From the IMG/VR virus record IMGVR_UViG_3300025073_000001: a stretch of DNA of 64,000 nt. The stretch is one strand, 5' to 3'. The translations under genes were made by a program, and so were the position numbers. Of the stretch, positions 4,362 through 52,000 are shown one piece after another. Origin of the DNA: a virus. Lineage: Duplodnaviria > Heunggongvirae > Uroviricota > Caudoviricetes. Within the stretch, counting starts at the first letter, position 1; each line of letters starts with the position of its first letter. A model generated the notes under the pieces. The model searched no databases. It was not told the DNA's origin and saw only the letters and a list, made by a program, of their open reading frames with translations.

Positions 4362-4564
4362 TCTTCAAAATGTCTAAGTTGAATCCAAGAAATTTCTTCT
4401 CTAATTTCCTTGGTTTCGTTGTTTTCAATTACATAAGACCAAGTATGATCGTCATAAGGCAAATCTACCTTATAAACTTCAATGACTGTCCAAGGTTCAA
4501 GCTCCCACTTGATTCCTTCCCAGTCCCATTGTCTGAATTGAACTTGATCTCCTATTTCAAACAT
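4358..4564 (-). CDS. Small hypothetical protein (SH3-like pattern)
   Basis: MFEIGDQVQF start; overlapping, coupled arrangement. Confidence 0.5.
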   Translation of the reverse strand: MFEIGDQVQFRQWDWEGIKWELEPWTVIEVYKVDLPYDDHTWSYVIENNETKEIREEISWIQLRHFEE

Positions 4565-4886
4565 TTTGAATGAATTTAATCACAGTTTGCCAAACTGCAT
4601 CTATTCTCGTCCTTGCCAAATCGCTTTCACAAATCAACCATTCAGTTTCATCATGAATTGAAATTGAGCAGTAATTTCCTTCAATTCTAACTAAATAAAC
4701 TCCTCTTCCTGCTTCTAAGTTTTCAATCTTTTCAACGACTGTCATTAAGCAATCCCAAGAAGTGTGAAATTTCAATCCATCAACTCTGATTGGAGCAACA
4801 CCTAACTTTTCCTTGATCATATTTCCTGGAAATTCAGTCCAGCCCATAAATTCTGCGATTAATTTGTTTCCTTCTTGATGTGTCAT
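4557..4886 (-). CDS. Hypothetical phage protein
   Basis: NKLIAEFMG...FHTSWDCLMTVVEKIE pattern, common in small phage proteins. Confidence 0.6.
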   Translation of the reverse strand: MTHQEGNKLIAEFMGWTEFPGNMIKEKLGVAPIRVDGLKFHTSWDCLMTVVEKIENLEAGRGVYLVRIEGNYCSISIHDETEWLICESDLARTRIDAVWQTVIKFIQNV

Positions 4887-4888
4887 AA

Positions 4889-5092
4889 TTACATTTTTGG
4901 ACTTGGTGAATCTTGAATTTTAATTCGTTGTCCGGAATTAAGTGTTTGAACTTCATCGGCACAAATTTCCCGCTGTTCCGCACATTTCAAAAGTGCGAAT
5001 TCTTTCATCAATGTTAGAGTGATCTCTTTTTCACCATACCAATCAATTTCAGGCCTGGAAAAATTTTCGTTATAATATTGTTCAGCAGTCAT
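4889..5092 (-). CDS. Hypothetical protein
   Basis: 67 aa, downstream of a host-type promoter. Confidence 0.55.
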   Translation of the reverse strand: MTAEQYYNENFSRPEIDWYGEKEITLTLMKEFALLKCAEQREICADEVQTLNSGQRIKIQDSPSPKM

Positions 5093-5131
5093 AAAAAATG
5101 TGGTTTAAAAGTTTAACTCTGTTTTACGTTA

Positions 5132-5164
5132 CAAAGATAATAACTTCTAAACCACATTTCCAAA
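5132..5164 (-). promoter_or_regulatory. Bacteroidota-type sigma-A promoter (-33/-7)
   Basis: TTTG (5161-5164), 21-nt spacer, TATCTTTG (5132-5139). Confidence 0.75.
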
Positions 5165-5380
5165 TTATTTCTTAACTTTTTTCACATTACATTTTGGACA
5201 AATACAAGTTCGTTCCTTCAAGTTAATTTTCCAACCCATTTTCCTTGCTTGTCTAAAAGCATCTGTCTTTGGATTTCCTTCATCAGAAAAGAATTGGTCA
5301 CATTCACTTCTGAATGGATTTTCGGTTTGATGATTGGGATGGTCGCAATATAGGTCGAGAGTATAGCCGGAGGAGATCAT
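5165..5380 (-). CDS. Small zinc-binding hypothetical protein
   Basis: YCDH...C...CICPKC Cys/His pattern. Confidence 0.55.
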   Translation of the reverse strand: MISSGYTLDLYCDHPNHQTENPFRSECDQFFSDEGNPKTDAFRQARKMGWKINLKERTCICPKCNVKKVKK

Positions 5381-5398
5381 AATTTTACAAAAAATAAA

Positions 5399-7342
5399 TT
5401 ATTTTCTAAAATCCAAGAGATATTCATATTTTTTGTTCGAGGTTTTGTTAAAATGTGATGTATTTGATGAGATAAAATATTCATTACATTCTTCGTTGAA
5501 ACATTTTCTCAAGGCAGTCGGAATATTGACAAGTAGATTTGGTAACGTTTTTATTTTCTGAATGAATGATTCCTTCCAAAATTCAAAGTTTAAATAATCA
5601 ATGGGATTTGAATATGTTTCTAAATCATAATATGGAATGCTAGTAAATGATAAATCAATGTTATCTGGCAGCAAAGATAAGTCAAAATCTTCAATTTTAC
5701 AATTAAATAATTCAACATTTGAAAAATTCTTTGATAATTCAACCAATTCATTGAACGTTTCAATGTTAGGTTCACATCCAATATAAGTTCCATTTGGATA
5801 CAAACTTTTAAACCCCAACATTCTTCCACCAAATCCGCAACAAGGATCAAACACAATCGGAGTTTCTTTTTCTCCAATGCAATGTTTGTAAATTGCAGCA
5901 GCCAGAACTGGCTTGAAGAATGAAACAGTATATCTACCTGCCGCAAGACCTTGAATCATCTGATGAATAGAAAAGTCAAAAATTTCACCAGAATTGTTTA
6001 TTCCAATTCTATATTTTATCACCTTTTCCATAATTTTATCATCTTTCCATGCTTCAACTGGAGATTTGGAATCTTTGAAAGAACTTTTCCAAAATGAATT
6101 GAAGGTTGACTTTAAATATGAAACACCAATTAATGAAGAATTATTATTGAAGGTTTTATCTTTTACTATTTTATCAAAATTGTATTTATTGATGGAATTT
6201 GTTATATTTGAAATATTTTCGTGGGTTTGAATAATTGGAAACTCTGGTTGAAATTCTTTTAAAAATCTAAAAATAACTCTCCAATATTTTTTCAAATTAT
6301 CCTTGCCTTTCTTATCAAGGTATTTTTTCAAATATTCTTTAGTTAGAAATTTAGTATTATTAGTAAATGAGTAGTCTTGTTCATAAACATTTTCCCAAAT
6401 ATCCTCAAATGTCACCTTTCTATCAAATTTTTTGAAGATTTCAGGTCTAACTCTAATTAATTCAAATTCTCCATTTTTACATAAATTTGTCTTCCTAAAA
6501 TCATTAATTGCACTTCCCATCATTGTTAATGTCAAGTTGTTCATTGTAGATAAATGAAATACACTCCCATCAATTTCTATTAAAAATTTTTGAAATTTAA
6601 TGTCATAATTGTGGCCTTTAAAATGAAATGGTTTTGAATCTAAATCATTTGCAATTGTAACTTGAATTTTTGTATCGTTTAAATTATACTTGTTTCGGAA
6701 AGGTTGATGTGTAAATTCACAATCGTAGCCAAATTTTTCAAGTTTTGTCTGTCTAATTTTTTCAATATTTACATAATTTTCATCGCCATATTTCTCTAAT
6801 TTTGTCTTCTTGACTTGTAATTTACCTGCTTCAGTTGATGTAAATGTCCTTGCACCATAGCGATCAATATTTGTTGCAATTAGTTTTTGTTTTATTGCAT
6901 CTTTTTCATCATCAGTTCTTTTAGAAATGGTTTCCTTTAATTTTTCTGGGTTATTAAAGGTTGGATTTTCATATCGTTCTTCTTTTGTCTCCGCAATTTT
7001 ATCTATGAATTTTTGCAACTTCATCGGATTATCAACTCCGTATTTATCTATCAATGCTTTTTTTGAATTGGTTTTAATCAATTCTTTTGTTTCTTCGGTG
7101 TGCGGTTTTCTCGGAAAATGGTTTCTAGTAAATTCATTGAAGAAATTGGGATTGTGTGATTCAAACTGCATCTTTGTTCCACATTCACATTTACAGGTCG
7201 GATGGATTCCATTAAAATAAAATTTCACAACATATTCTTTGTAAGAATTAAATTCAGAATGATTCTTTTTTAAATGACGAATTAGTTGAGTTTGGTTTTG
7301 GTGTTCTGCTTGGCAGATTTTGCATTTTAAGTCTTTTTCCAT
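5399..7342 (-). CDS. Zn-finger / PD-(D/E)xK endonuclease / amino-DNA methyltransferase fusion
   Basis: C2H2 (CKIC...HLKKNH), CKCECG, KYGxxN repeats, YDIKFQKFLIEIDG nuclease motif, SAM motif FDPCCGFGG and motif IV-like TSIPY. Start re-called to MEKDL (7342) because the putative promoter overlaps the track start. Confidence 0.7.
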   Translation of the reverse strand: MEKDLKCKICQAEHQNQTQLIRHLKKNHSEFNSYKEYVVKFYFNGIHPTCKCECGTKMQFESHNPNFFNEFTRNHFPRKPHTEETKELIKTNSKKALIDKYGVDNPMKLQKFIDKIAETKEERYENPTFNNPEKLKETISKRTDDEKDAIKQKLIATNIDRYGARTFTSTEAGKLQVKKTKLEKYGDENYVNIEKIRQTKLEKFGYDCEFTHQPFRNKYNLNDTKIQVTIANDLDSKPFHFKGHNYDIKFQKFLIEIDGSVFHLSTMNNLTLTMMGSAINDFRKTNLCKNGEFELIRVRPEIFKKFDRKVTFEDIWENVYEQDYSFTNNTKFLTKEYLKKYLDKKGKDNLKKYWRVIFRFLKEFQPEFPIIQTHENISNITNSINKYNFDKIVKDKTFNNNSSLIGVSYLKSTFNSFWKSSFKDSKSPVEAWKDDKIMEKVIKYRIGINNSGEIFDFSIHQMIQGLAAGRYTVSFFKPVLAAAIYKHCIGEKETPIVFDPCCGFGGRMLGFKSLYPNGTYIGCEPNIETFNELVELSKNFSNVELFNCKIEDFDLSLLPDNIDLSFTSIPYYDLETYSNPIDYLNFEFWKESFIQKIKTLPNLLVNIPTALRKCFNEECNEYFISSNTSHFNKTSNKKYEYLLDFRK

Positions 7343-7485: not shown

Positions 7486-9159
7486 TTAAAGGGTATTTAG
7501 ACCTTCAACATAGATCTTTCCGTAATACTCGGGCCGTAGGGTTCCTTTCGCATAACGTGTCATTACGCCCTTACGAGGAACAAAGTTATCTGGGTCAAGA
7601 ATAGTAGGTGTCATAATTAACGGAATATATGGAGAATAGAAAGCCCCAGTTTCAAGCCATTGACTACCTCTATATCCCATCAAAATACAGTTCTCTTTCA
7701 TATAAGGATTCTTATATACTTGGAATCTGTTATTCAATGCACCAATCTTCTGAACACCCATTGAGAACTTAGCCTGATTTCCGTCAGTATCTGCGGCATA
7801 ACCAGGAATAGATTCAAGAATTGTCGCAACCAAAGGAGAACAAACTAAGAAGTTAGCACCACCACGAACAGTTGCTTGGTGGATTCTATTGGACATTTTT
7901 TGAATCTTTGTACCAATAGTTTGGAACCAAGTTCCTTGAGTGTAAGCGGTCAAGTTCGCAGCAATTGCGCCAAACGTGCTGTTTCCAGAATTATATTCAT
8001 AACCAATCCTCGTTGACCAGTAATCAGTTACTGCGGCATTCTGGATTAACATATCCAAGATTTCAAGGTCAATTTCTTGAGAAATATATTCACCAAGGAT
8101 ACCTGTCAATTCTGCCTCCGCATCAATATTTTGATACGCATTCAAGTCTTGAGCAAATTCAGGAGTCCAAATTGCTTTCAACTTACGGGTTTTAGCAACG
8201 ATTGGATCTGAACGCAATTCAAGGCTCAATTGTGGAATATCGAGATTATCATCAATATTTGAACCTGCTTGAGTTTTACCTGCTTCAAAATCACCACGTG
8301 TTACATCAGTTGGCTGCTTGTGATAATTGACAATTACTGTTGAATTCTGACCAGTAAACAATGCTCCTGAAACGATAAATGAAACAATTGCAGTAGATTT
8401 ATTATACTTCGTGAATTCTTGGTAAACATCATTGATCAACGTTCCTGTTCCATTACTCAATGTGAATGCTCTAACACCATTTGGATCAAAGTTTGCAATT
8501 GATGCAGTTGCAATGTTAATCTTGTAAACAGTTGTTGGATTTGGTGCAACAATTGAAGAACTAAATTCTGAACTGAAGTTATAATCAACTGCTGAAACTG
8601 AACCTGTGGTATAGGTCGTTGAGTCTGCAGTTGAACCTGAAGTCAGTGCAGAAGAGGAATAATCGTTGATTGTGTAACCAAAACGACCTGGACCATAAAG
8701 TCCCTCAGTTGGAGTTCCCCATCCGTAACTTGCAGCAGTTCCTTTGTTTGCGTCAGAAACACCAAATACCGAGTCATTCTGTGAATCTTTACCTGAGTTG
8801 GTATTGAAACCTGGCTGACCAGTTCCGTATTTAATATCCAACCAGAAAACAAGTCCAGAAGGCATATTCATTGGTTGAACCGAAACGAAATCCTTTGCTG
8901 ATACTTCCGCGAAAATCCTACGAATCAACGGAAGTGCAATTCCTGCCCATTCTTCCGAACCTGCAACGGTTCCAGTTTGGTTTGCTTCAGTTACTAATTG
9001 ACGTGCTTGGTTTTCAAGCAATTGCGCCATATTTCCTTTTTCGGGACCTTTCAGTCCTTCAAGTAGGCCGGTTTTCTCCCACTTTCTAGTTAACATTTGT
9101 GCTTGCTTCCTTTGATTCATGTATGTATCTTTAGGAAGCAAATCGCTCAATTGACTCAT
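7486..9159 (-). CDS. Major capsid protein (T4 gp23-like)
   Basis: KWEKTGLLEGL, LLENQ, VQPMNMPSGLVF, AKTRKLKAIWTPEFAQDL, IDAEAEL, FYSPYIPL, PRKGVMTRYA; likely maturation site LVTE/A. Confidence 0.97.
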   Translation of the reverse strand: MSQLSDLLPKDTYMNQRKQAQMLTRKWEKTGLLEGLKGPEKGNMAQLLENQARQLVTEANQTGTVAGSEEWAGIALPLIRRIFAEVSAKDFVSVQPMNMPSGLVFWLDIKYGTGQPGFNTNSGKDSQNDSVFGVSDANKGTAASYGWGTPTEGLYGPGRFGYTINDYSSSALTSGSTADSTTYTTGSVSAVDYNFSSEFSSSIVAPNPTTVYKINIATASIANFDPNGVRAFTLSNGTGTLINDVYQEFTKYNKSTAIVSFIVSGALFTGQNSTVIVNYHKQPTDVTRGDFEAGKTQAGSNIDDNLDIPQLSLELRSDPIVAKTRKLKAIWTPEFAQDLNAYQNIDAEAELTGILGEYISQEIDLEILDMLIQNAAVTDYWSTRIGYEYNSGNSTFGAIAANLTAYTQGTWFQTIGTKIQKMSNRIHQATVRGGANFLVCSPLVATILESIPGYAADTDGNQAKFSMGVQKIGALNNRFQVYKNPYMKENCILMGYRGSQWLETGAFYSPYIPLIMTPTILDPDNFVPRKGVMTRYAKGTLRPEYYGKIYVEGLNTL

Positions 9160-9216
9160 TTATTCATTTTCCTTATTTTTATTTTTGTTAGTAATTTGAT
9201 CTTTGAATGGTCGTTT

Positions 9217-42952: not shown

Positions 42953-44569
42953 TTATTGATAAGATAAAATTACTTCAAACAATGCCTCTTCAGTGAAACT
43001 TTTGAAGATTGGACTTGAAGGTTTAGCAACTGCTAATAATTCATTGTTCTGATTATAGAGACCAATTGCACTGATGTAAATTTCAGGTTTTCCAACGAAG
43101 TCATCAATTATCACTCCTTCAGATCCAGTTTGATAAGTCAAGTTATTGGTGAAATTATATTCTTTATTCTTAACCCGAACGAAGAACTGTTCAACGTATT
43201 CATATTTTAATTTTCTACCTTGCAATCCTAAATAATCACCACTGTCATCTGTTCTCAATGCTGCTCCGCTAATTGCAGTGAATAATTTCATCGCATTATC
43301 TCCTGCTACATCACTTCCTGTTACTGTCAAGAATGATGCGGAGACATCGAGTAATTCTGCATCTAAAATAACTATCCCTTGTTGCGGATAAAGTAATCCG
43401 TAGACATGAGGCGCATTGCTTGAAGTTGCAGAACCCGAATAGATACCTGTTTCAAGCGTTCCTGATACGATGTAATGGACTTTTCCTGCACCAGTGGATA
43501 AAGTACACATGGATGAAGAGATATCGCGGTAGAACGTAGATTTGGCGTTCGCAGATAGTGTTCTGTAATCAAGTTTGCTGTCATCAATTAACCTTAGAAC
43601 AGTTTGTGAACCTAACGTTACATTTGATCCAGTATGAGCGTTTCTATTTCCGTTTCCGGTTAAGAATTGACTGCCTGATAAATGGTGGAGATTGAGTTCA
43701 AAGTTACCTTCATCTAATTTATCGCCCATTCTATCTCGGTTCACGTTCAACACATAGAAATGAAATATTTCCCTGTCTCCTAACCTGAATCTTCTTTGAG
43801 GATGATCTAATAACAATGAGCGATATTGACCATAAACTGCATTTGAAGGAGTTAACCAATCATATCCACCTAAATCTCTGCTGCCACTTCCACCATCATG
43901 CCCGTAAGCAATGTCAAATTGCGGAGTTGATGAACAGGTGAAACATTGAGCGGAATAGACTGATTTCTTATAAGAACCAGTATCTGACGAACAAGTGTAA
44001 AAAGTTAATAGATTTCCACAAGCAGAACCAGTGTAATCGAGCCACATTCCATAGAATGATTGATTGACTTGTTTAGGTAATTTATCGTCAATTTCAAACT
44101 TGGTAAAAACTCTTCCCATTGCCAATTCAACTGGTGGATCAACTCTTGGAGGAATTGGAACCGGAGTTGGTAAAGGAACAATTGGTGGTGGTAAATTCGG
44201 AGCAGGAGGTTCTGGAGGACTTGGTGGAATAACAGGTGCAGGTTGACTGACTTGTAAAATTAAATCATCCCAAGTCCAATCTTGAATTAAATCTTCCGTT
44301 TCAATGTTGAAGACATAATTTCCATTGACTGTTTGAGTCGTAGTCTTTCGCATTGAACTATCAATCCAATTATAAGGTGGATCATAAGTTTCAGATGCTT
44401 GAACTTGGATTTGCCAACTGTTTCCAATAACTTGAACAGGAAGTATTAGGTCTTCAGAATAGGTTCCATTACCAGAACTTGCGCCAGTGATCGTGAATCT
44501 CTGAGGCAACGCTCCTTGCTGCTTGGATAATATTTTTACTGACCAGTTTCCTGTGACTGTTATTGACAT
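42953..44569 (-). CDS. Virion structural (tail) protein, paralogue of 50498-52000
   Basis: Pro-rich linker, GNLLTFYT, FVRVKNKEYNFTNN, IGLYNQNNELLAVAK. Confidence 0.7.
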   Translation of the reverse strand: MSITVTGNWSVKILSKQQGALPQRFTITGASSGNGTYSEDLILPVQVIGNSWQIQVQASETYDPPYNWIDSSMRKTTTQTVNGNYVFNIETEDLIQDWTWDDLILQVSQPAPVIPPSPPEPPAPNLPPPIVPLPTPVPIPPRVDPPVELAMGRVFTKFEIDDKLPKQVNQSFYGMWLDYTGSACGNLLTFYTCSSDTGSYKKSVYSAQCFTCSSTPQFDIAYGHDGGSGSRDLGGYDWLTPSNAVYGQYRSLLLDHPQRRFRLGDREIFHFYVLNVNRDRMGDKLDEGNFELNLHHLSGSQFLTGNGNRNAHTGSNVTLGSQTVLRLIDDSKLDYRTLSANAKSTFYRDISSSMCTLSTGAGKVHYIVSGTLETGIYSGSATSSNAPHVYGLLYPQQGIVILDAELLDVSASFLTVTGSDVAGDNAMKLFTAISGAALRTDDSGDYLGLQGRKLKYEYVEQFFVRVKNKEYNFTNNLTYQTGSEGVIIDDFVGKPEIYISAIGLYNQNNELLAVAKPSSPIFKSFTEEALFEVILSYQ

Positions 44570-44587
44570 TCGTGTTCTTTATCTCAT

Positions 44588-44646
44588 TTAATATAATTCA
44601 GATATTTCTACTCGAAGATTATGTAATAAATCTTGATATTTTTTTA
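44588..44646 (-). pseudogene. 3' fragment of the 61-aa gene interrupted by the transposon
   Basis: Reads YQDLLHNLRVEISELY* in frame with the 5' fragment once the element and one TSD copy are removed. Confidence 0.75.
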
Positions 44647-44671
44647 GGCAACTATACCCATTTACACCCAA
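44647..44671 (+). repeat. Left terminal inverted repeat
   Basis: GGCAACTATACCCATTTACACCCAA. Confidence 0.95.
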
Positions 44672-44697
44672 CTCCATAACTAATTGATTATCAATGG

Positions 44698-44728
44698 TTT
44701 GAAATTTTAGAATTTTGTTTTATCTTTG
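44698..44728 (+). promoter_or_regulatory. Bacteroidota-type promoter inside the transposon left end
   Basis: TTTG-N19-TATCTTTG. Confidence 0.75.
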
Positions 44729-44758
44729 CCAGCGATTCACAAATAAAAATTTCATAAT

Positions 44759-44947
44759 ATGGAACAGAGCATCGCCAAAGAAATCTTAAACCATTTGGAG
44801 GCCAATCGAATTTCAACAGTCCTAATTTTATCGCTACTCACTGAAATCAAGGCAAAACTTGAAGACAAAAGTCCAGAAATGGTTACAGACGAAATCAAAG
44901 AAAAAATTTCTCAATTATTGGCGGCTCTTCAAACACAAATCAAGTAA
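44759..44947 (+). CDS. Transposon passenger hypothetical protein
   Basis: 62 aa helical; downstream of a consensus promoter. Confidence 0.55.
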   Translation: MEQSIAKEILNHLEANRISTVLILSLLTEIKAKLEDKSPEMVTDEIKEKISQLLAALQTQIK

Positions 44948-45021
44948 CTGCATCAATTCATTCAGTAGTTGCTCAACGCTCTTAGTTTTAGTCATTTTTC
45001 ATATTCTCCTTTCCCCTATAA

Positions 45022-45180
45022 TTATCCATCTTTTTCCTTTTTCTTCTTTTTGGGTTTTTCATCGGCTTCTTTCATGGCAGCCTTCATTATGTCAAGGAAT
45101 GAACCTTTGACCTGTAATTTTTCATCATACTCGCCTCGCTGCTTTTCAGGCTGGGGTTTTTTATCGGTTGTTTTTTTCAT
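45022..45180 (-). CDS. Small Lys-rich passenger ORF (52 aa)
   Basis: Not in the track; MKKTTDKKPQPEKQRGEYDEKLQVKGSFLDIMKAAMK..., starts 6 nt after the R-M stop. Confidence 0.45.
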   Translation of the reverse strand: MKKTTDKKPQPEKQRGEYDEKLQVKGSFLDIMKAAMKEADEKPKKKKKEKDG

Positions 45181-45186
45181 AGGGTT

Positions 45187-48129
45187 TTAACTTTGGCTTT
45201 CAATGATTTGAATTTCTTCGGGTGTTAGTTCATACAACTCATACACTATTTCATTTATTCGCTGCTCAGCATAGTCAATACGGTTTTGTAGGTGGTCAAG
45301 GTTGCCTTGTAGATTCACTTCCCACTTCTCTGTATTTAATTGTAGAAGTTTATCGACTAATGAAATTGTCTCATTATATAGTTTCAAACTGTCTCCTTTG
45401 AATTTGATGTAGTCTATTACACTCGTATTTTCTAAATATTTTATTTTTAAGTTTATATCAAGAAACTGCTCCCTGTAATAATAGTTATAAAGTTTTGAAT
45501 TTAGGATAGCGAGAAGAAATTTCAGTTCGCCTTTATCATTTTTTAGAGAATTTATATAAATAACACCATCACCGACAAATAGACCACTTTCATCATAAGT
45601 GCCTACTAACCGTTGTTTTAGCTTTTGATTTCTGATTTTTTGGAAAAGTATTTTGGGGATTTCAAACGTTGCTTGTTCTCTTGGCCATTGAAGTGAATAC
45701 CAAGGAATAAGATTACGCTGCACTTCTCGACGCTTTTCAAGTTGAATTTTGCACGGACTTATTACTCTTTCTGCATCTGGAAATAACTTCAAGTCAATTT
45801 TCTTTGTTACATAGATGATGTGATGTTCTGGATTTCTAAGGCTAAACCTATCAAAGTCTGAACCAAAGATAAAATCTTTTAATAGCTCCTTTTCAATTTT
45901 TGGAGTGTCTTTTTTGTTATAGATGTAAGCACAGTTAAGCCCTGTAACTATTCCTTGAATCACCTTAAATCTGTTTGCAATTTTTAAAGATTGCTTCTCA
46001 ATTCTATTAAAAAGATCTTTTGTTTCTTCGGAAGATAGATTAATAATATTTTCTCTGTTTAGCAAAAAGGTTTTTTGTGAAATTGACGTTTCTTTGACTG
46101 TAAAGAGGTTCGTTTTCGTTGTATTGCTTTCAATAAGTTTCGTATTTATACGAATTTTATTGCTTTTAGAAATAACTATTATAATAGTATCATTATTGGC
46201 ATCTTCGAAAACCTTATTGCCCACAGAATTTATTTCCTCAAAGTGGAATGCTTCTAAAATATTTTTTCTCAAATCTTCAAATGCAGAATTTCGCAAAAAC
46301 TGCATGGGAATAATAAAACTTAGTTTGCCTTGGCTATTTAAAACCTTCAAGCCTTTGTCGACAAAGAGGCCAAACAAGTCGAGTCTTTTTTTGAGGAGAG
46401 GATATTTAATATTATAATAAGTTCGTTCTATATGGCTAATGCCATCTATTGCAACGTATGGGGGATTACCGATGATACAATCGAAGCCGCCCTGTTTAAA
46501 TACTTCCGGAAATTTTGATTTCCAATTAAACGGCTTAATCTTCTTGTCCTCGCCAAAATCTAACTGTCCTTCGTAAAAGTCAAAATCTATAAGTGAATTA
46601 CCGCTTTTGATATTATTTTCAAGTGTTGGCAATACTCGCTCAAAAGTCATTGTTGTTTGCATGGATGCAGTTGTTTCGCCTTCCATGCACTTCATCAAGA
46701 GGCTCAATTTTGTTACCTCAACGGCTTGCGTATCAATATCAACCCCAAAAATATTGTTGAGCAGGATTTGTTTTTTGACGTGTGTGGTCAACCTTCCATC
46801 AGGTGTTAATGGGCTGTCTTTCAGGTTACGGCTCTTTTTATAGTTTTTAATGTACCAGTCTGTGTGATAAACTAAAAGGTACTGGTACGCACCCAAAAGA
46901 AAAGAGCCACTACCACAAGCCGGATCGCAAATTTTTATTTTCTTGATTTCATCGGGCGGTTTGCCTTCGACAAGTTTCCCTACCGTATTTTTTACGATGT
47001 ATTCAACAATATATTGCGGGGTGTAAAAAACGCCACCTGCCTTTCTGACTTCTGGTTTTTCTTCAACAATGGCTTGATGGTCTGGTGTCAGGCGAATAAC
47101 TTTCCCCAAAAACCTTTCATAAGCCGTACCTAAAATTTCTACTCCGATAACCGAAAATTCATAGGGCGATTTTGGAAAGTACAATTCATCAACAATATTT
47201 TTAATCACCTCATTATCAATGATTACAGATTTTGAAAGCGTGTCCTTTGTAAAATCGAATAGCCCTGAATTGTATTTTCTATCTGCATCCTCAAATACCT
47301 GATACATATTGCGGAAATAGCCGCCTTCATCGTTGGAATTGACCAAACAGCCTTTTAGTTTTCCGTAAGGTTCTGCTCCCCTGTCCTCACAGTTGCGAAT
47401 GAATACAATTCGGTTTATGTTCATTTGAACAAGGTAGTTTATTTCTTCCTCGTTCAAATGCTTGTTTCTCAAAGCAATAGAGGTCGCCAAATAATTACGC
47501 CATTCATCTAATGACTGCAAAAATGCAGAATCAACGCTTAGAGTGCCTTTTTTGACAGTTTTTGCAAATCGGTCAAGACTGCCTTTTAATACCTGTTCCT
47601 TTGAAAATAAATCCCATAGGGCATCAAATTTTTCAAGGTATTGGTCGTAGGTAATGTACTCTATTCTTGCAAGTTTAGCAGGGTCAGTCTGCTTTGGTTG
47701 TATTGTGCAGTCGTAAATAGCAAACTCTTCAAAATCAGTTAGAATTGAGATGTGTACTTCTGGGTCATTCCAGCCATAACGCCGCAATTGATATGATGGA
47801 ACAATATCAGTTTCTATTTGAATAGATGGTTTTTTGGCTTCTAAGAAGAACTTTCTCTTGCCATCAACACGGAAACTATAATCAGGCGCTTTGCTCTTGC
47901 CTTCAATCGTTACTCTATCCTCATGCACAACATCCCTATCAGAATCTATTGCCCGTCTTTTCGTATTATTAGTGTCCCAACCCAAAGCATCAAAAAACGG
48001 ATTGATGAATTGATTTCGTGTTTCAGTTTCATTTTGAGTCTTTTTGAAGACTTCAATTTGGCTTGCAAATTGCTCTACTAATTCGGCAATTTTATCGTAT
48101 GCTTCTTGTTTTGACGGGCTATTTTTCAT
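45187..48129 (-). CDS. Single-chain type IIG restriction-modification enzyme (Eco57I/TaqI_C-like architecture)
   Basis: N-terminal PD...EAKK nuclease, DPACGSGSF (motif I), IIGNPPY (motif IV), C-terminal TRD; 980 aa uninterrupted. Confidence 0.9.
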   Translation of the reverse strand: MKNSPSKQEAYDKIAELVEQFASQIEVFKKTQNETETRNQFINPFFDALGWDTNNTKRRAIDSDRDVVHEDRVTIEGKSKAPDYSFRVDGKRKFFLEAKKPSIQIETDIVPSYQLRRYGWNDPEVHISILTDFEEFAIYDCTIQPKQTDPAKLARIEYITYDQYLEKFDALWDLFSKEQVLKGSLDRFAKTVKKGTLSVDSAFLQSLDEWRNYLATSIALRNKHLNEEEINYLVQMNINRIVFIRNCEDRGAEPYGKLKGCLVNSNDEGGYFRNMYQVFEDADRKYNSGLFDFTKDTLSKSVIIDNEVIKNIVDELYFPKSPYEFSVIGVEILGTAYERFLGKVIRLTPDHQAIVEEKPEVRKAGGVFYTPQYIVEYIVKNTVGKLVEGKPPDEIKKIKICDPACGSGSFLLGAYQYLLVYHTDWYIKNYKKSRNLKDSPLTPDGRLTTHVKKQILLNNIFGVDIDTQAVEVTKLSLLMKCMEGETTASMQTTMTFERVLPTLENNIKSGNSLIDFDFYEGQLDFGEDKKIKPFNWKSKFPEVFKQGGFDCIIGNPPYVAIDGISHIERTYYNIKYPLLKKRLDLFGLFVDKGLKVLNSQGKLSFIIPMQFLRNSAFEDLRKNILEAFHFEEINSVGNKVFEDANNDTIIIVISKSNKIRINTKLIESNTTKTNLFTVKETSISQKTFLLNRENIINLSSEETKDLFNRIEKQSLKIANRFKVIQGIVTGLNCAYIYNKKDTPKIEKELLKDFIFGSDFDRFSLRNPEHHIIYVTKKIDLKLFPDAERVISPCKIQLEKRREVQRNLIPWYSLQWPREQATFEIPKILFQKIRNQKLKQRLVGTYDESGLFVGDGVIYINSLKNDKGELKFLLAILNSKLYNYYYREQFLDINLKIKYLENTSVIDYIKFKGDSLKLYNETISLVDKLLQLNTEKWEVNLQGNLDHLQNRIDYAEQRINEIVYELYELTPEEIQIIESQS

Positions 48130-48205
48130 ATAAAACTATCCTTGTTAATCAAAGAGTTGAATTTTGCAAAGGAAGCAAAAAACTTGATTTTTTCTTCTCA
48201 AAAAA

Positions 48206-48237
48206 TTTGGCATTGTGTGTAACATCGCCTAATTTTG
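48206..48237 (+). promoter_or_regulatory. Bacteroidota-type promoter of the transposase
   Basis: TTTG-N20-TAATTTTG. Confidence 0.7.
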
Positions 48238-48258
48238 TACCATACAAAACGCAATTAG

Positions 48259-49221
48259 ATGGATTTCAACTTCAAAACGATTCACGACTTTAACGACTAC
48301 TTCAAAGACGAAGAAACTTGTTATCGCTTCCTTGAAAATCAACGCTGGAACGATGTTCCTGTTTGCCCCCACTGTGCATCTGCAAAAGCACCTTACTTCG
48401 TTAAAGCAAGAGGCAAGTTTCAACACATTCCTTCCTACCGTTGCAGTGAACGCGGTTGCAAACTTCCGTTCACTGTTCGCACTGGCAGCATCTTTGAAGG
48501 TTCAAAAGTAGAACTTCGTAAGTGGTTTCAAGCAGCCTACGAAATTTCTACCTCAAAGAAAGGGATTAGTTCCGTTGAGCTCGCTACACGCATCGGTGTT
48601 TCTCAAAAAACTGCTTGGTTCGTTAACCATCGCATTCGTACCATGCTTACAAACGTTGCTCCTGAAATGTTGGAAGGCACAGTTGAAGCAGATGAAACTT
48701 TCGTAGGTGGCAAGAACAAAAACCGTCATTCTTCCAAAAAAGTAGCCAACTCGCAAGGTCGGGCACACGTTGACAAAACGGCTGTCGTTGGGTTGCTGCA
48801 ACGCAGTGGCAAGGTAAAAACTTTCGTTGTCCCCAATACCAGTGCTGACACTTTGCAAAGCCTCATGGTTGAAAATGTTGCTCCACAAGCCGTTGTTATT
48901 ACCGATGCTTACGCATCCTACAAAGGGCTTGAAAAACATTTCAACAAGCACATTTCTGTTAAACATACAGCAGGTTGCTACAAAACCGTAGGCGACAATC
49001 ACACCAACAACATTGAAGGCTTTTGGAGCCAGTTTAAACGTGGCGTAATTGGAATTTACCACTATGTTTCCCCGCAACATTTGCACCGCTACTGTGCCGA
49101 ATTTGAAACCCGTTACAACGGACGAAACGAAGGGAACGTTGCACAGTTTTTTGAAGTTGTAAAGAACAGCGACAAAAGACGGATAAGATATAAAGAACTA
49201 ACTTCAACTTGTCAACCTTAA
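48259..49221 (+). CDS. IS1595-family (ISXO2-like) DDE transposase
   Basis: CPHC...C zinc ribbon, HTH, VEADETFVG, ITDAYASY, TNNIEGFWSQFKR. Confidence 0.95.
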   Translation: MDFNFKTIHDFNDYFKDEETCYRFLENQRWNDVPVCPHCASAKAPYFVKARGKFQHIPSYRCSERGCKLPFTVRTGSIFEGSKVELRKWFQAAYEISTSKKGISSVELATRIGVSQKTAWFVNHRIRTMLTNVAPEMLEGTVEADETFVGGKNKNRHSSKKVANSQGRAHVDKTAVVGLLQRSGKVKTFVVPNTSADTLQSLMVENVAPQAVVITDAYASYKGLEKHFNKHISVKHTAGCYKTVGDNHTNNIEGFWSQFKRGVIGIYHYVSPQHLHRYCAEFETRYNGRNEGNVAQFFEVVKNSDKRRIRYKELTSTCQP

Positions 49222-49298
49222 TAAATGAGCCGCACAAAAATTGCGGCTTTTTTATTTTTTTGGATGTATTTTTGCTTTCCACTTCAAATCTTAAACCC

Positions 49299-49733
49299 AT
49301 GTCGGACACCCTAATTTCGTTTCTGGAAGGCTTTGAGCCTACCAATGAGGTGCAGACCGTGTTGCATACCATTTTTACCATACAGGCAATGTTTGAAAAG
49401 AATAATGAGGACGATTTATTCTTTCAAACATCAAAGGAAATGCAGTTTAAACTACTTGAAATGGCAAAGAAAAAATATTCTTTGCTGACTGAGGTTGTAA
49501 ATAATGGCAGTTTAGAGCAATTCAATTCACATATCCAAAGGATTAAAGATGAAATAGAACAGTTCACCAGCGAACACGAAATGAACTCAATAACAGGGCA
49601 AAAGGTGAACGACTTAAACTCCCAATTAAAAAGTGTTCGGGCATTCATAGAAGCAAAGGAAAAGTACAACACCTTGAAAACTTTGGATGAATTGATGAAA
49701 GACGAAAGGGTTTTGATGGAGATTTTTTCTTGA
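49299..49733 (+). CDS. Transposon passenger helical protein
   Basis: Start re-called to ATG 49299 (MSDTLISF). Confidence 0.55.
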   Translation: MSDTLISFLEGFEPTNEVQTVLHTIFTIQAMFEKNNEDDLFFQTSKEMQFKLLEMAKKKYSLLTEVVNNGSLEQFNSHIQRIKDEIEQFTSEHEMNSITGQKVNDLNSQLKSVRAFIEAKEKYNTLKTLDELMKDERVLMEIFS

Positions 49734-49776
49734 TCTTTAAACATTGAGGTTCACCCTAATTTTGTGACGAAAAATA

Positions 49777-50043
49777 TTGATTATGAATGAAATTCAACTT
49801 AATGAACTCAAAAGCCGTGCAGAAAAATTGAAAAATGAGCCTGTTTACTATGAAATTAATATCCAAGGTAAAATGATATTAGTTGATGGTGTTTTTTCTA
49901 AAATTGGAGAAATGCAAGGTATAGGTGAAGTTGGCGAGCATCTTAGTTACAAAATTGAAGGGATTATTCTAACTCCCACAGGGAAATCAATCCGTAGACC
50001 ATTATTAGAAATTGTCCAGTTTATAGAGTCTAAGAAGCACTGA
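49777..50043 (+). CDS. Transposon passenger hypothetical protein
   Basis: 88 aa; TAATTTTG -7 box at 49757-49764. Confidence 0.5.
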   Translation: MIMNEIQLNELKSRAEKLKNEPVYYEINIQGKMILVDGVFSKIGEMQGIGEVGEHLSYKIEGIILTPTGKSIRRPLLEIVQFIESKKH

Positions 50044-50260
50044 TTTTTGAAATACGGACGTTTTCAGGGGGTACGATTCCTGCGTTAACTCCGCTTATCA
50101 TGAAATTAAGAACTGCTATTTTTGCATTAAAGCATAACGAGTTATCATTAATTATCTCAATTAAATGATTAAGGTACTCGTTTTCTTCTTCTTTACTGTG
50201 AAACTCACAGTGAAGATATTTATCAAGTAAATCGTTGTATGGCTTTCCGAAAATGAACAT
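50030..50260 (-). CDS. Transposon passenger hypothetical protein
   Basis: 76 aa; AAGGAG upstream; converges on 49777-50043. Confidence 0.45.
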   Translation of the reverse strand: MFIFGKPYNDLLDKYLHCEFHSKEEENEYLNHLIEIINDNSLCFNAKIAVLNFMISGVNAGIVPPENVRISKISAS

Positions 50261-50336
50261 TTTAAATTTCTCCTTTTGATATAATTATCTGAAATTTCTA
50301 AATTTTTACATTGCAAATTTAACTAATGTGTTTGAT

Positions 50337-50361
50337 TTGGGTGTAAATGGGTATAGTTGCC
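50337..50361 (-). repeat. Right terminal inverted repeat
   Basis: Exact reverse complement of 44647-44671. Confidence 0.95.
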
Positions 50362-50496
50362 TTTTTTTATTTTAGCATCTTTATTTACGGATGCATCTAT
50401 TTTTTTCAATTCAATTTGAATTAATTTATCAACTTTATCTGTTGAACTTCTCATATCAAATATTTTATTACCTTCTATCAAAGATTTCAATTTCAT
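50362..50496 (-). pseudogene. 5' fragment of the interrupted class-B leader gene
   Basis: MKLKSLIEGNKIFDMRSSTDKVDKLIQIELKKIDASVNKDAKIKK, 45 codons ending in the TSD. Confidence 0.75.
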
Positions 50497-50497
50497 A

Positions 50498-52000
50498 TTA
50501 CATTACTCCAAGCATTCCAAATACAAATCCAATCCAAACAAAGTCGAGCTTGAGCTTGATTAATGCTTCCGAACTAAAAGTTTTCTTCAGTGGTTTATTT
50601 AATTTACCAACTGCTAATAATTCCTTCGCATCATTATAAAGACCACAAGTTGTTATATAGGTCGTTGGATTTCCAATCATTGTTGGTTCAGCCAAATCAC
50701 CTTCAGAACCTGTTGTAAAGGTTGGGTTATTGGTGAAATTATATTCTGAATTCTTAACTCGAATGAAGAAGTGCGATGATTTAACCTTTTCAGCCGATCT
50801 TCCAGCGAATCCTAAGTAATCGCCTGACGTATCAGTGTAAAGTGCGGCTCCAGAAATTGCAGTGAATAGTTTATAAGCGTTGTCACCTGGAATTTCAGAT
50901 CCAGTTACGGTTAAGAAGGATGATGATTGATCAAGTTTATCACCGTTCAATACCACAATTCCCAATCTTCTATAAAGTTTTCCGTAATAATGAGGAGCAG
51001 ATGAATTATAAATTCCATCTTCAATTGTTCCTGAAACGATGTTGTAAGTTTCTCCAGCAGTCGTAATTGTAGCAGCAGTCGTTCTTGAATCATCAATTAA
51101 TCTAAGGACGGCTTGAGTTGGGAAAACCGTGACGTTTGAGCCAGTCCAAGCATTTTGTGCTCCACCTCCTGCTAACCATTGTGAACCAGATAATCTTTGA
51201 AGGTTTATTTCAATATTCCCTTCATCAATGTATTCACGCATCCTAGCACGATTGATATTAATTGCATAAATAGAGTCAGTCGTCACACCTCCAATGGTAA
51301 ATCTTTCTTCACCTGGATCTAAACATAATTGCTTGTATTGTCCGTAAATTGCTCTTGATGGCGTGTCATTAACTTGACCTCCTTCGTCGGCTGAACCTGA
51401 ACCTTGTTTATGGCCCCATGCTACTGCAAATTGACTCTCAGAACCACATTCTCCAGAACCGCTGTTAAAAATATCATAGTAATATCTCTTCGAGGTTGCG
51501 TTTTGGGCTGATGAGGTATAAAAGGTTAACAAGTTACCTACATTTCCGCTCCACAATGCCCGAGTGACCGTTTCTTGTTGATTCGGAACAATATCTCCAT
51601 CTTCAAATCGAGTCCAAATTCTACCTGAACCTAAATTCAGAGGAGGTGGTCCGGAAGGGCCAGTTGGAAGATTTGGTCCCGATGGTGGATTTCTACTTGG
51701 AGGTTGTCCAGGGAATATTGGTCCACCAGTTTCAGGCAAGACATCAGTCGTCGGAGTGACGTTGTGAACAGTATTGTTCCCATCTAAGACGAAGAAGTTT
51801 CCTGCTTGGTCTTGATTACCTTGAACCACGATTCCCGGTGCAACTTGCTTGACAACAGGTTGAGTTCCAACCAGAACTTCCGGATTGGTTGAAACCGCTT
51901 TGACATCAAGTCCAAGTTCCTGCATTTTAGCAATTTGACTCGCATCAACTGTCGGTTGAGGTTGAACTTGTTGAACGCTTCCTTTTTTAATAAATCCCAT
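50498..52000 (-). CDS. Virion structural (tail) protein, paralogue of 42953-44569
   Basis: GNLLTFYTSS, FIRVKNSEYNFTNNPTF, GLYNDAKELLAVGKL. Confidence 0.72.
   Translation of the reverse strand: MGFIKKGSVQQVQPQPTVDASQIAKMQELGLDVKAVSTNPEVLVGTQPVVKQVAPGIVVQGNQDQAGNFFVLDGNNTVHNVTPTTDVLPETGGPIFPGQPPSRNPPSGPNLPTGPSGPPPLNLGSGRIWTRFEDGDIVPNQQETVTRALWSGNVGNLLTFYTSSAQNATSKRYYYDIFNSGSGECGSESQFAVAWGHKQGSGSADEGGQVNDTPSRAIYGQYKQLCLDPGEERFTIGGVTTDSIYAININRARMREYIDEGNIEINLQRLSGSQWLAGGGAQNAWTGSNVTVFPTQAVLRLIDDSRTTAATITTAGETYNIVSGTIEDGIYNSSAPHYYGKLYRRLGIVVLNGDKLDQSSSFLTVTGSEIPGDNAYKLFTAISGAALYTDTSGDYLGFAGRSAEKVKSSHFFIRVKNSEYNFTNNPTFTTGSEGDLAEPTMIGNPTTYITTCGLYNDAKELLAVGKLNKPLKKTFSSEALIKLKLDFVWIGFVFGMLGVM

What the first reader, a model, noticed from the sequence alone, without database searches (positions are those of the whole stretch)
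44639..50369. Intact IS1595 cargo transposon delivering a type IIG R-M system into the phage
Seen: perfect 25-bp TIRs, an 8-bp TSD (TTTTTTTA), an intact DDE transposase, a 980-aa nuclease-MTase-TRD ORF with catalytic motifs intact, five small passengers and host-type promoters. The DNA looks more GC-rich than the flanks. Established: IS1595 elements make 8-bp TSDs and can carry passenger genes. Inference: a recent jump from a Bacteroidota genome that gives a lytic-type phage a defence enzyme. It could methylate progeny DNA, exclude competitors or attack unmodified host DNA. It also shows a phage route for spreading R-M genes.
Basis: partly seen in the sequence, partly recalled or inferred. Interest (0 to 1): 0.75.

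Follow-up and report, generated by a model that had tools for sequence, protein, structure and literature searches.

The report
Defence-carrying jumping gene in a phage
A complete 5.7-kb jumping gene of the IS1595 family, carrying an intact one-protein restriction-modification enzyme, sits in the tail-gene region of a 229-kb T4-like phage; related copies carry other defence genes in other such phages and in Bacteroidota chromosomes, so it is a clear example of a known kind of element in an unusual home.

Summary
Perfect 25-bp inverted ends (44647-44671, 50337-50361) and an 8-bp duplication (TTTTTTTA) bracket 5,715 bp. Inside are an intact IS1595 transposase and a 980-aa type IIG restriction-modification enzyme with all its motifs. 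The host is a T4-like phage. The exact transposase lies on five contigs with the same neighbours, so an assembly chimera is unlikely.

The element belongs to a Bacteroidota-wide subgroup of passenger-carrying IS1595 elements ("transporter IS"). Four of five other complete copies have their own perfect 8-bp AT-only duplication. One cargo slot holds different defence genes: three type IIG alleles (one swapped only in its specificity half), a type II methylase set, ABC-3C/PDC-M68, PDC-S22 and SocA/Panacea.

A model predicts that it binds the transposase N-terminus (0.62; best control 0.02).

"Recent jump from a Bacteroidota genome" is only partly supported. The closest full copies are in other phage-like contigs at dS 0.5-0.9, and no donor or empty site was found. 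An identical enzyme occurs in a second context.

This scan has noted IS1595 cargo elements with restriction-modification genes on other DNA before, some in phages. Verdict: new member of a known kind.

The parts
44639..44646 (.). Left copy of the 8-bp target-site duplication, TTTTTTTA
   Evidence: Read directly; identical to 50362-50369.
44647..44671 (+). Left terminal inverted repeat, 25 bp
   Evidence: 25/25 with the right end; none expected by chance. Exact copies in other elements.
44683..44695 (.). Subterminal palindrome ATTGATTATCAAT, at the left end only
   Evidence: Conserved in the left ends of the window, G001, L128, G005, G003 and L146. Function unknown; a possible protein-binding site.
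44698..44728 (+). Bacteroidota-type promoter motif (TTTG-N-TAnnTTTG) before the 62-aa ORF
   Evidence: Motif scan. A consensus match only.
44759..44947 (+). 62-aa ORF; the gene caller of the source record calls it, but no family matches and other copies lack it
45022..45180 (-). 52-aa lysine-rich protein, the second core gene of this IS subgroup
   Evidence: Open and conserved in all 10 related elements whatever the cargo. Predicted to bind transposase residues 3-130. No family in Pfam, NCBIfam or PADLOC.
45187..48129 (-). Type IIG restriction-modification enzyme, 980 aa: PD-(D/E)XK nuclease, gamma-class N6-adenine methyltransferase, TaqI_C-type specificity domain
   Evidence: Pfam HSDR_N, N6_Mtase, Eco57I, MmeI_Mtase, TaqI_C. 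PADLOC REase_MTase_IIG full length. Motifs read. dN/dS 0.063 over residues 1-558 against the G001 copy.
48206..48237 (+). Bacteroidota-type promoter motif before tnp
   Evidence: This block (about 48200-48258) is conserved together with tnp in L128.
48259..49221 (+). IS1595-family DDE transposase, 320 aa
   Evidence: C36/C39/C62/C67, D145 and E281 are invariant and D216 nearly so. dN/dS 0.04-0.10.
49227..49249 (+). Terminator-like hairpin with a T-run just after tnp
49299..49733 (+). 144-aa ORF of unknown function, a conserved passenger of the right arm
   Evidence: Open and 66-67% identical in L135 and L129. Substitutions peak at codon position 3. The minus-strand frame over the same stretch carries stop codons in L135 and L129.
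49777..50043 (+). 88-aa ORF, unsupported
   Evidence: no homologue in other copies.
50030..50260 (-). 76-aa ORF, unsupported
50337..50361 (-). Right terminal inverted repeat, 25 bp
50362..50369 (.). Right copy of the target-site duplication, TTTTTTTA
50323..50496 (-). Small phage ORF cut by the insertion: 57 aa now, with its last 12 aa read from the inverted repeat; 61 aa in the rebuilt empty site
   Evidence: No homologue in related phages, so it may not be a real gene.

Best explanation
Shown. 44647-50361 is an intact member of a Bacteroidota-wide subgroup of passenger-carrying IS1595 insertion sequences ("transporter IS"). It inserted, with an 8-bp AT-only duplication, into the variable gap between two tandem paralogous genes (42953-44569 and 50498-52000) in the tail region of a 229-kb T4-like phage. 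The subgroup has a fixed frame: left end, small variable ORFs, the 52-aa gene and a cargo slot on one strand, tnp on the other, variable ORFs, right end. Here the slot holds a type IIG R-M enzyme whose nuclease and methylase motifs are intact and whose nuclease-methylase half is under purifying selection.

Inferred.
- The transposase, helped or regulated by the 52-aa protein that is predicted to bind its N-terminal Zn-ribbon/DNA-binding part, moves the unit into AT-rich sites.
- In the infected cell the enzyme is transcribed in the same direction as the phage genes. It m6A-methylates phage DNA at its site and cuts unmethylated DNA: the host chromosome, co-infecting phages, or both. The phage thus gains self-marking plus exclusion, and the cargo helps the element persist.
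- The same frame moves alternative defence cassettes between Bacteroidota chromosomes and their T4-like phages.
For: Anatomy.

Phage identity: Gp23 capsid, T4 portal and T4-type terminase.

Real insertion, not an assembly chimera:
- The duplication is intact on both sides, and removing the element restores one 61-aa frame.
- The exact transposase is on 5 contigs (229 kb plus four of 50-200 kb), all with the same neighbours.

Mobility of the family: four of five other complete copies have their own perfect 8-bp AT-only duplication. These are L128 AAAATTAA, L144 TAAAATTT and L146 ATTTTTAA, with G001 at 6/8.

Contexts:
- T4-like or phage-like for the window, G001 (gp44 clamp loader, DUF7487), G005 (tail sheath, T4 baseplate), G004 and the flank of L002.
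- Bacterial for L144 (RHS/DUF6443), L146 (PheRS, T9SS), L147 (Nemorincola caseinilytica) and L148 (3.56-Mb chromosome).

Cargo variety.

Specificity swap: the window and G001 enzymes are about 93% identical over residues 1-558. They are unrelated from just after NPPY to residue ~945, and alike again in the last 35 aa.

Selection: dN/dS 0.04-0.10 for tnp and 0.063 for enzyme residues 1-558.

Foreign composition.

52-aa protein: present in every copy. Complex model score 0.62 against a best control of 0.02. That mark was reached by 58 of 80 solved complexes and 2 of 110 mismatched pairs. Runs share at least 65% of contacts and the partner's pLDDT is at least 54.

Precedent: IS1595-family elements MTnSag1 and tISCpe8 have 25-bp ends, 8-bp duplications and AT-rich targets (PMC5704250). 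A Neisseria unit has 26/26 inverted repeats, an 8-bp duplication and a type IIG gene (PMC2853133).
Against: - No activity, expression or methylation data exist.
- The enzyme's recognition site is unknown, so site avoidance or self-protection could not be examined.
- No full-consensus Bacteroidota promoter lies before the R-M gene.
- Cargo has the same direction as the flanking phage genes in 5 of 6 phage-like contexts. That is not significant (one-sided binomial about 0.11).
- The closest copies differ by dS 0.5-0.9, so this lineage is old. Nothing dates the insertion apart from its undamaged ends.
- The complex model is a prediction made on my own small alignments.
- The phage's lifestyle and host are inferred from T4-like genes, promoter motifs and the element's relatives.
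Confidence: 0.8

Rival explanations
1. The enzyme serves the phage mainly as a methyltransferase. It marks progeny DNA so that hosts carrying the same or a like-specific R-M enzyme (the family is common in Bacteroidota) cannot restrict it. The nuclease is silent, weak or irrelevant during infection.
For: More than 8,000 relatives of the enzyme exist, named from Saprospiraceae, Sphingobacteriaceae, Cytophagales and Bacteroidales. Related elements with R-M cargo sit in bacterial chromosomes. From general knowledge, phages often carry solitary methylases as anti-restriction.
Against: The PD...EAK nuclease motif is intact. Residues 1-558, which include the nuclease domain, show dN/dS 0.063 between two phage-borne copies. 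That is not expected if the nuclease were dispensable.
Confidence: 0.25
2. The cargo serves the transposon, not the phage. R-M and the other defence or toxin cassettes act as addiction or stabilising modules that keep the element in any replicon it enters. In the phage it is a tolerated, near-neutral hitch-hiker in a dispensable gap.
For: The slot also holds SocA/Panacea toxin-antitoxin-like and other cassettes. The insertion lies in a gap that varies from 17 to 1,445 bp among related phages, and none of 80 related loci has the element there. R-M systems behaving as selfish mobile units is an established idea (PMC2853133).
Against: The insertion is kept in five separately assembled contigs. 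At least five other phage-like contigs carry members of the same sublineage. That suggests more than passive tolerance. The two readings are not exclusive.
Confidence: 0.2
3. The element is frozen: a once-mobile copy that can no longer move in this phage, for example because the transposase is not made during lytic growth. Only the R-M gene matters now.
For: A second context has the identical enzyme and 52-aa gene, but only an 87-aa Zn-ribbon stub of the transposase or none. This shows that the sublineage does decay into fixed R-M genes. In the window tnp is antisense to phage transcription.
Against: Here both ends are perfect, tnp is full length with D145, D216 and E281, and it has its own promoter motif and terminator.
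Confidence: 0.15
4. Assembly artefact: a bacterial IS contig was joined into the phage scaffold.
For: IS copies break several related assemblies at their ends: G004, G005 and G006 all stop at or inside the element.
Against: Phage sequence lies on both sides in one scaffold. The 8-bp duplication is perfect and a reading frame is restored on removal. Five contigs show the same context.
Confidence: 0.02

Closest known systems
Transporter IS (tIS) of the IS1595 family, e.g. MTnSag1/tISSag10 and tISCpe8 (PMC5704250; Siguier, Gagnevin and Chandler 2009, as cited there and in PMC2853133)
   Same: IS1595-type DDE transposase with an N-terminal Zn ribbon; 25-bp terminal inverted repeats; 8-bp duplication; AT-rich targets; passenger genes inside the ends.
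   Different: Those two are 1.7-2.0 kb with one lincosamide-resistance gene in Firmicutes. This one is 5.7 kb, from Bacteroidota and their phages. It carries a defence enzyme, several small ORFs and a conserved 52-aa second gene, and its relatives exchange cargo in a fixed slot.
Transposon-like type IIG R-M unit of Neisseria gonorrhoeae NCCP11945 (Furuta, Abe and Kobayashi 2010, PMC2853133)
   Same: Type IIG R-M gene between perfect inverted repeats (26/26) with an 8-bp duplication and a transposase-like gene.
   Different: There the R-M gene is truncated, it has an S-subunit partner, the transposase looks inactivated and the host is a bacterial chromosome. Here every part is intact and the host replicon is a T4-like phage.
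Type IIG enzymes of the Eco57I/MmeI kind, and TRD allelic diversity in type IIG genes (PMC2853133)
   Same: One polypeptide with an N-terminal PD-(D/E)XK nuclease, an NPPY N6A methylase and a C-terminal TaqI_C-type specificity domain. The specificity half is swapped between close alleles (window against G001).
   Different: The sequence matches MmeI_N only below Pfam's cut-off (26 against 27 bits). The best solved relative is the solitary methylase CamA (7LNI), and only for the methylase-TRD part. Recognition and cleavage sites are unknown.
Defence-system cargo on other transposons (Tn7-like elements; recalled from memory, not checked here)
   Same: A transposon frame carrying interchangeable anti-phage systems.
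   Different: A different transposase family and a much smaller element, here resident in virulent-type phage genomes.

Membership tests
IS1595 family (passenger-carrying 'transporter IS') | DDE transposase with the DDE_Tnp_IS1595 domain and an N-terminal Zn ribbon | tested here: met
   PF12762 over 1-153/153 (139 bits) and PF12760 (43.6 bits). NF033547 at 198.9 bits against a cut-off of 75.
IS1595 family (passenger-carrying 'transporter IS') | Catalytic acidic residues and zinc-binding cysteines kept | tested here: met
   In an 11-sequence alignment reaching down to 25% identity, C36, C39, C62, C67, D145 and E281 are invariant and D216 nearly so. Assigning these to the catalytic triad is inference.
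IS1595 family (passenger-carrying 'transporter IS') | Short terminal inverted repeats (25 bp in MTnSag1/tISCpe8) | tested here: met
   25/25; comparison from PMC5704250.
IS1595 family (passenger-carrying 'transporter IS') | 8-bp target duplication in AT-rich DNA | tested here: met
   TTTTTTTA here. AAAATTAA, TAAAATTT and ATTTTTAA in L128, L144 and L146.
IS1595 family (passenger-carrying 'transporter IS') | Passenger genes inside the ends | tested here: met
   The R-M gene and the 144-aa ORF lie between the ends.
IS1595 family (passenger-carrying 'transporter IS') | Transposition shown | not testable with these tools
   Only indirect: several copies at different sites, each with its own duplication.
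Type IIG restriction-modification enzyme | Nuclease and methyltransferase in one polypeptide, matched along its whole length | tested here: met
   PADLOC PDLC03604, residues 9-975 against profile positions 5-1003 of 1011, E 1.6e-187.
Type IIG restriction-modification enzyme | PD-(D/E)XK nuclease motif in the N-terminal domain | tested here: met
   HSDR_N at 42.1 bits against a cut-off of 25.1. D83...E97-A-K99 read and kept in the G001 copy.
Type IIG restriction-modification enzyme | N6-adenine methylase motifs I (xGxGxF) and IV (NPPY) | tested here: met
   DPACGSGSF and GNPPYV; Eco57I at 136 bits and N6_Mtase at 66 bits.
Type IIG restriction-modification enzyme | C-terminal target-recognition domain | tested here: met
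   TaqI_C at 39.9 bits against a cut-off of 26.5; aligns to the CamA TRD.
Type IIG restriction-modification enzyme | Cleavage and methylation activity; recognition site | not testable with these tools
   Needs cloning, or a methylome of virion DNA.
BREX PglX methyltransferase | Score above the family cut-off, with BREX neighbour genes | tested here: not met
   NF033452 at 130.9 bits against a cut-off of 500. There are no BREX genes inside or beside the element.
T4-like phage (host replicon) | Gp23-type capsid protein, Gp20-type portal, T4-type large terminase | tested here: met
   PF07068 at 261 bits, PF07230 at 223 bits, PF03237 at 47 bits.

The most novel reading that the evidence does not exclude
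The sublineage whose transposases are at least 92% identical is a phage-adapted cargo transposon. It has a two-gene core, the transposase plus a 52-aa protein that binds the transposase N-terminus. It circulates among T4-like phages of Bacteroidota and swaps whole defence cassettes, or only their specificity halves, in one slot. Virulent phages would then be a regular reservoir and vehicle for defence systems. IS1595 elements would also have an accessory protein that I did not find described in the papers I read.
Probability: 0.4. Interest if true: 0.7.

Novelty: new member of a known kind. Interest (0 to 1): 0.5.

Why it matters
Insertion sequences are reported to be rare in phage genomes, and phages are considered poor vehicles for them (Leclercq, Gilbert and Cordaux 2012, PMC3429520). 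Here one IS subgroup occupies at least six different sites in T4-like or phage-like contigs and carries complete defence enzymes. That gives a concrete route by which restriction-modification and other defence genes pass between bacteria and their virulent phages. It also gives a natural set of near-identical type IIG enzymes with swapped specificity halves. Finally, it points to a small conserved protein that may control IS1595 transposition and can be tested at the bench.

Tried and rejected
- No whole genome is held for the window, so second copies in the same phage could not be sought.
- Megablast of 44000-51000 against 50,697 GenBank phage records gave no match.
- The empty-site junction 25-mer gave no hit in IMG/VR or JGI metagenome contigs, so no empty allele is known.
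- The transposase was searched in 151 Saprospiraceae genomes. Only 5 matched, at 46% identity or less, so no close bacterial donor was found.
- The two flanking phage proteins and the neighbours I scanned have no PHROG or Pfam family, except for a Laminin_G_3/baseplate-like neighbour.
- The 62-, 76-, 88- and 144-aa ORFs and the 52-aa protein have no credible hit in Pfam, NCBIfam or PADLOC. The only hits are weak GidB/RsmG matches for the longer TTG-started reading (49209-49733) of the 144-aa frame and one SDR match for the 88-aa ORF, all far below the cut-offs.
- The ESM Atlas gives only 'hypothetical protein' clusters for the 52-aa protein.
- BREX PglX was considered and rejected.
- The sigma-70 promoter scan is not informative for a Bacteroidota-type host, so I used a TTTG-N17-23-TAnnTTTG scan instead.
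- A bias for cargo to point the same way as the phage genes (5 of 6) is too weak to claim.
- DNA of the three Logan contigs with the identical enzyme could not be fetched.
- In the Saprospiraceae chromosome G002, only a solo right end was found beside a distant IS1595 transposase.
Full report
**1. The observation**

- The 25-mer GGCAACTATACCCATTTACACCCAA lies at 44647-44671 on the plus strand and at 50337-50361 on the minus strand. These are the only two matches in the window even with three mismatches allowed, and none occurred in 100 shuffles.
- Directly outside both ends is TTTTTTTA, at 44639-44646 and 50362-50369. The element proper is 5,715 bp.
- Its G+C is 36.2% against 33.5% for the rest of the window, which places it in the top 1% of equal-sized windows. 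The excess is mostly in the transposase gene (43.7%). GC3 is 0.33-0.41 for the element's genes against 0.24-0.29 for phage genes.

**2. The genes inside**

Transposase, 48259-49221 (+), 320 aa.
- It has the IS1595 Zn ribbon and the complete DDE_Tnp_IS1595 domain. It scores 198.9 bits on NCBIfam's IS1595 model, whose cut-off is 75.
- In an alignment reaching down to 25% identity, the four zinc cysteines, D145 and E281 are invariant and D216 nearly so.
- A Bacteroidota-type promoter motif lies 22 bp before its start. A hairpin with a T-run follows its stop.

R-M enzyme, 45187-48129 (-), 980 aa.
- It matches PADLOC's type IIG model from end to end (E 1.6e-187).
- Pfam gives HSDR_N, N6_Mtase, Eco57I, MmeI_Mtase and TaqI_C.
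- The translation shows PD...EAK (D83, E97, K99), DPACGSGSF and GNPPYV.
- It is not a BREX PglX: 130.9 bits against a cut-off of 500, and there are no BREX neighbours.

Small ORFs. Two of the five are supported by conservation.
- The 52-aa lysine-rich ORF at 45022-45180 (-) starts 7 bp after the enzyme's stop codon.
- The 144-aa ORF at 49299-49733 (+) is also conserved.
- The other three (62, 88 and 76 aa) have no homologue and no family.

**3. The host replicon and the insertion site**

The window encodes a Gp23-type capsid protein, a T4-type portal and a T4-type terminase. Its source is a 229,053-bp metagenome scaffold. Nearly all large ORFs in the window are on the minus strand.

The element lies between two tandem paralogues, 50498-52000 and 42953-44569, which are 46-48% identical to each other. 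About twenty related T4-like contigs keep these two genes adjacent, with a gap of 17 to 1,445 bp. The site is therefore a variable spot. None of 80 related loci carries this transposase.

Removing the element and one copy of the duplication joins a 61-aa frame. With the element in place the frame ends after 12 residues read from the inverted repeat. That small ORF has no homologue, so the damage may be nil.

A chimeric assembly is very unlikely. The duplication is intact on both sides. The exact transposase is on five contigs (one of 229 kb and four of 50-200 kb), all with the same neighbours.

**4. The family**

Exact copies of the 25-mer occur in IMG/VR contigs, JGI metagenome contigs and two Saprospiraceae MAGs.

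Complete relatives found:

| Copy | Length | Duplication | Transposase identity |
|---|---|---|---|
| G001/L016 | 8,726 bp | 6 of 8 | 94% |
| L128 | 6,474 bp | AAAATTAA | 92% |
| L144 | 5,388 bp | TAAAATTT | 81% |
| L146 | 4,365 bp | ATTTTTAA | 83% |

More distant copies are L147 (Nemorincola caseinilytica), L148 (a 3.56-Mb chromosome) and L149.

All copies share one frame. A left end and a few variable ORFs come first. The 52-aa gene and a cargo slot follow on one strand. The transposase lies on the other strand. Variable ORFs and the right end close the element.

The slot holds:
- this type IIG enzyme;
- in G001, an allele about 93% identical through residue 558 and then unrelated until the last 35 residues, which is a swap of the specificity half;
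- in G005 and G003, a third type IIG enzyme only 29% identical;
- in L146, two type II methylases plus an unknown 413-aa protein;
- in L128, an ABC-3C/PDC-M68 pair;
- in L149, PDC-S22;
- in L144, a SocA/Panacea protein.

**5. Where the copies live**

- L144, L146, L147 and L148 have plainly bacterial neighbours: RHS/DUF6443, PheRS, T9SS-sorted proteins and Lon.
- The sublineage with 92-94% identical transposases was found, wherever the flanks could be read, in phage-like DNA. These are the window, G001 (gp44 clamp loader, DUF7487, glycosyltransferases), G005 (tail sheath, T4 baseplate protein) and the flank of the MAG contig L002 (PHROG hit E 7e-36). L128 is too short to judge.
- G004 and G006 show only an element end with the exact 25-mer. 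G004 has two proteins 61-71% identical to window proteins, and G006 has a flank gene with a PHROG hit.
- A sample of 151 Saprospiraceae genomes gave no transposase above 46% identity.
- One Saprospiraceae chromosome carries a solo right end.

**6. Age and selection**

Between copies, dN/dS is 0.04-0.10 for the transposase and 0.063 for the first 558 residues of the enzyme. dS is 0.5-0.9. The genes are therefore kept functional, and the known copies are not recent offshoots of one another.

Two things speak for recent movement.
- The ends and the duplication are undamaged.
- The identical 980-aa enzyme with the identical 52-aa gene occurs on three further contigs with quite different neighbours. 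There only an 87-aa Zn-ribbon stub of the transposase remains, or none. Their DNA could not be fetched.

**7. The 52-aa protein**

It is present in all ten related elements whatever the cargo. Its conserved core is Y-x3-L-x-V-K-G-x-F-x-D, between lysine-rich tails. It is therefore a core gene, not a passenger.

A complex model of transposase plus this protein scored 0.62, and the best of three controls scored 0.02. That mark was reached by 58 of 80 solved complexes and 2 of 110 mismatched pairs. The runs share at least 65% of contacts and the partner's pLDDT is at least 54. Contacts run from residues 19-42 of the small protein to residues 3-130 of the transposase, its Zn-ribbon and DNA-binding part. 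The model supports binding but does not show it, and my own small alignments were used.

A palindrome, ATTGATTATCAAT, 12 bp inside the left end's 25-bp repeat (44683-44695) is conserved in six copies and absent from the right end.

**8. How it probably works**

- Shown: the anatomy, family membership, mobility of the family, intact motifs, purifying selection, and the phage host replicon.
- Inferred: the transposase, with the small protein as helper or regulator, inserts the unit into AT-only octamers.
- Inferred: the enzyme is transcribed in the same direction as the phage genes. It methylates phage DNA and cuts unmarked DNA, whether host or rival phage.
- Rivals: it is mainly a protective methylase; it is a selfish stabilising cargo; or it is a frozen copy.
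- The orientation trend (cargo in the direction of the flanking phage genes in 5 of 6 phage-like contexts) is not significant.

**9. Comparison with what is known**

- IS1595-family elements with passenger genes are an established class. MTnSag1 and tISCpe8 have 25-bp ends, 8-bp duplications and AT-rich targets (PMC5704250).
- Furuta and colleagues described a Neisseria unit with 26/26 inverted repeats, an 8-bp duplication, a truncated type IIG gene and a transposase-like gene. They also described allelic diversity of type IIG specificity domains (PMC2853133).
- Phages have been reported to tolerate few IS (PMC3429520).
- This scan's own notebook holds 28 notes of IS1595 elements with R-M cargo in at least 26 genomes, several of them in phages. 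Those are unchecked leads, but they mean the theme is not new to the scan.

**10. Verdict**

A real, intact and well-documented new member of a known kind. What goes beyond the known is the repeated residence of one sublineage in T4-like phages, the fixed slot with exchangeable defence cargo, and a conserved small protein predicted to bind the transposase. Interest 0.5.

Noticed in passing
window 10505-11710 (-): A TnpB/IS605 OrfB-type gene (Cas12f1-like_TNB, OrfB_IS605, HTH_OrfB_IS605) sits about 1.3 kb from the major capsid gene, on the far side of the 344-aa ORF at 9217-10251. It is a second kind of mobile element in the same phage.
   Followed up: no
L016 (IMGVR_UViG_3300033066_001455) 4464-5656: The left arm of the G001 element holds three tandem modules, 535-605 bp apart. 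Each starts with the inner part of the inverted repeat (CCCATTTACACCCAAT). In two of them it is preceded by TATAGTT(G/A)C, the outer part of the inverted repeat in inverted orientation, and by a Shine-Dalgarno-like GGAGAA plus ATG on the other strand. This looks like repeated end-junction remnants or a small cassette array. Unexplained.
   Followed up: partly
L016 11698-12530 (+): Two overlapping ORFs (151 and 126 aa) inside the G001 element look like a split transposase of another family with an HTH N-terminus (my recollection: IS5/IS4-like). If so, a second IS is nested in the cargo transposon. Not checked against any family library for the second ORF.
   Followed up: no
L133 (IMGVR_UViG_3300020577_006502) 12217-14430, and L136 (Saprospiraceae MAG JAXLUR010000005.1) 8470-12277: A second, distant IS1595 transposase type (24-28% identical to the window's) lies a few kb from an exact copy of the window-type 25-bp end in both a phage contig and a bacterial chromosome. 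In the phage contig it sits next to a D12-class adenine methylase. Whether this transposase type uses the same ends is open.
   Followed up: partly
window 42953-44569 and 50498-52000 (-): The two genes flanking the insertion are tandem paralogues, 46-48% identical over about 360 C-terminal residues. They are conserved as a pair, or in larger arrays of up to five copies, in many T4-like IMG/VR contigs. The N-termini and the spacing vary. No Pfam or PHROG family matches. They are probably tail or receptor-binding proteins, judging by position next to a Laminin_G_3/baseplate-like gene.
   Followed up: partly
window 44990-45021 (-): Just after the stop of the 52-aa gene all copies keep a block with a strong Shine-Dalgarno-like AAAGGAG(A/G) plus ATG. 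In the window it opens only a 4-codon frame, but in other copies it leads into longer ORFs. Shine-Dalgarno sites are unusual for Bacteroidota genes.
   Followed up: no
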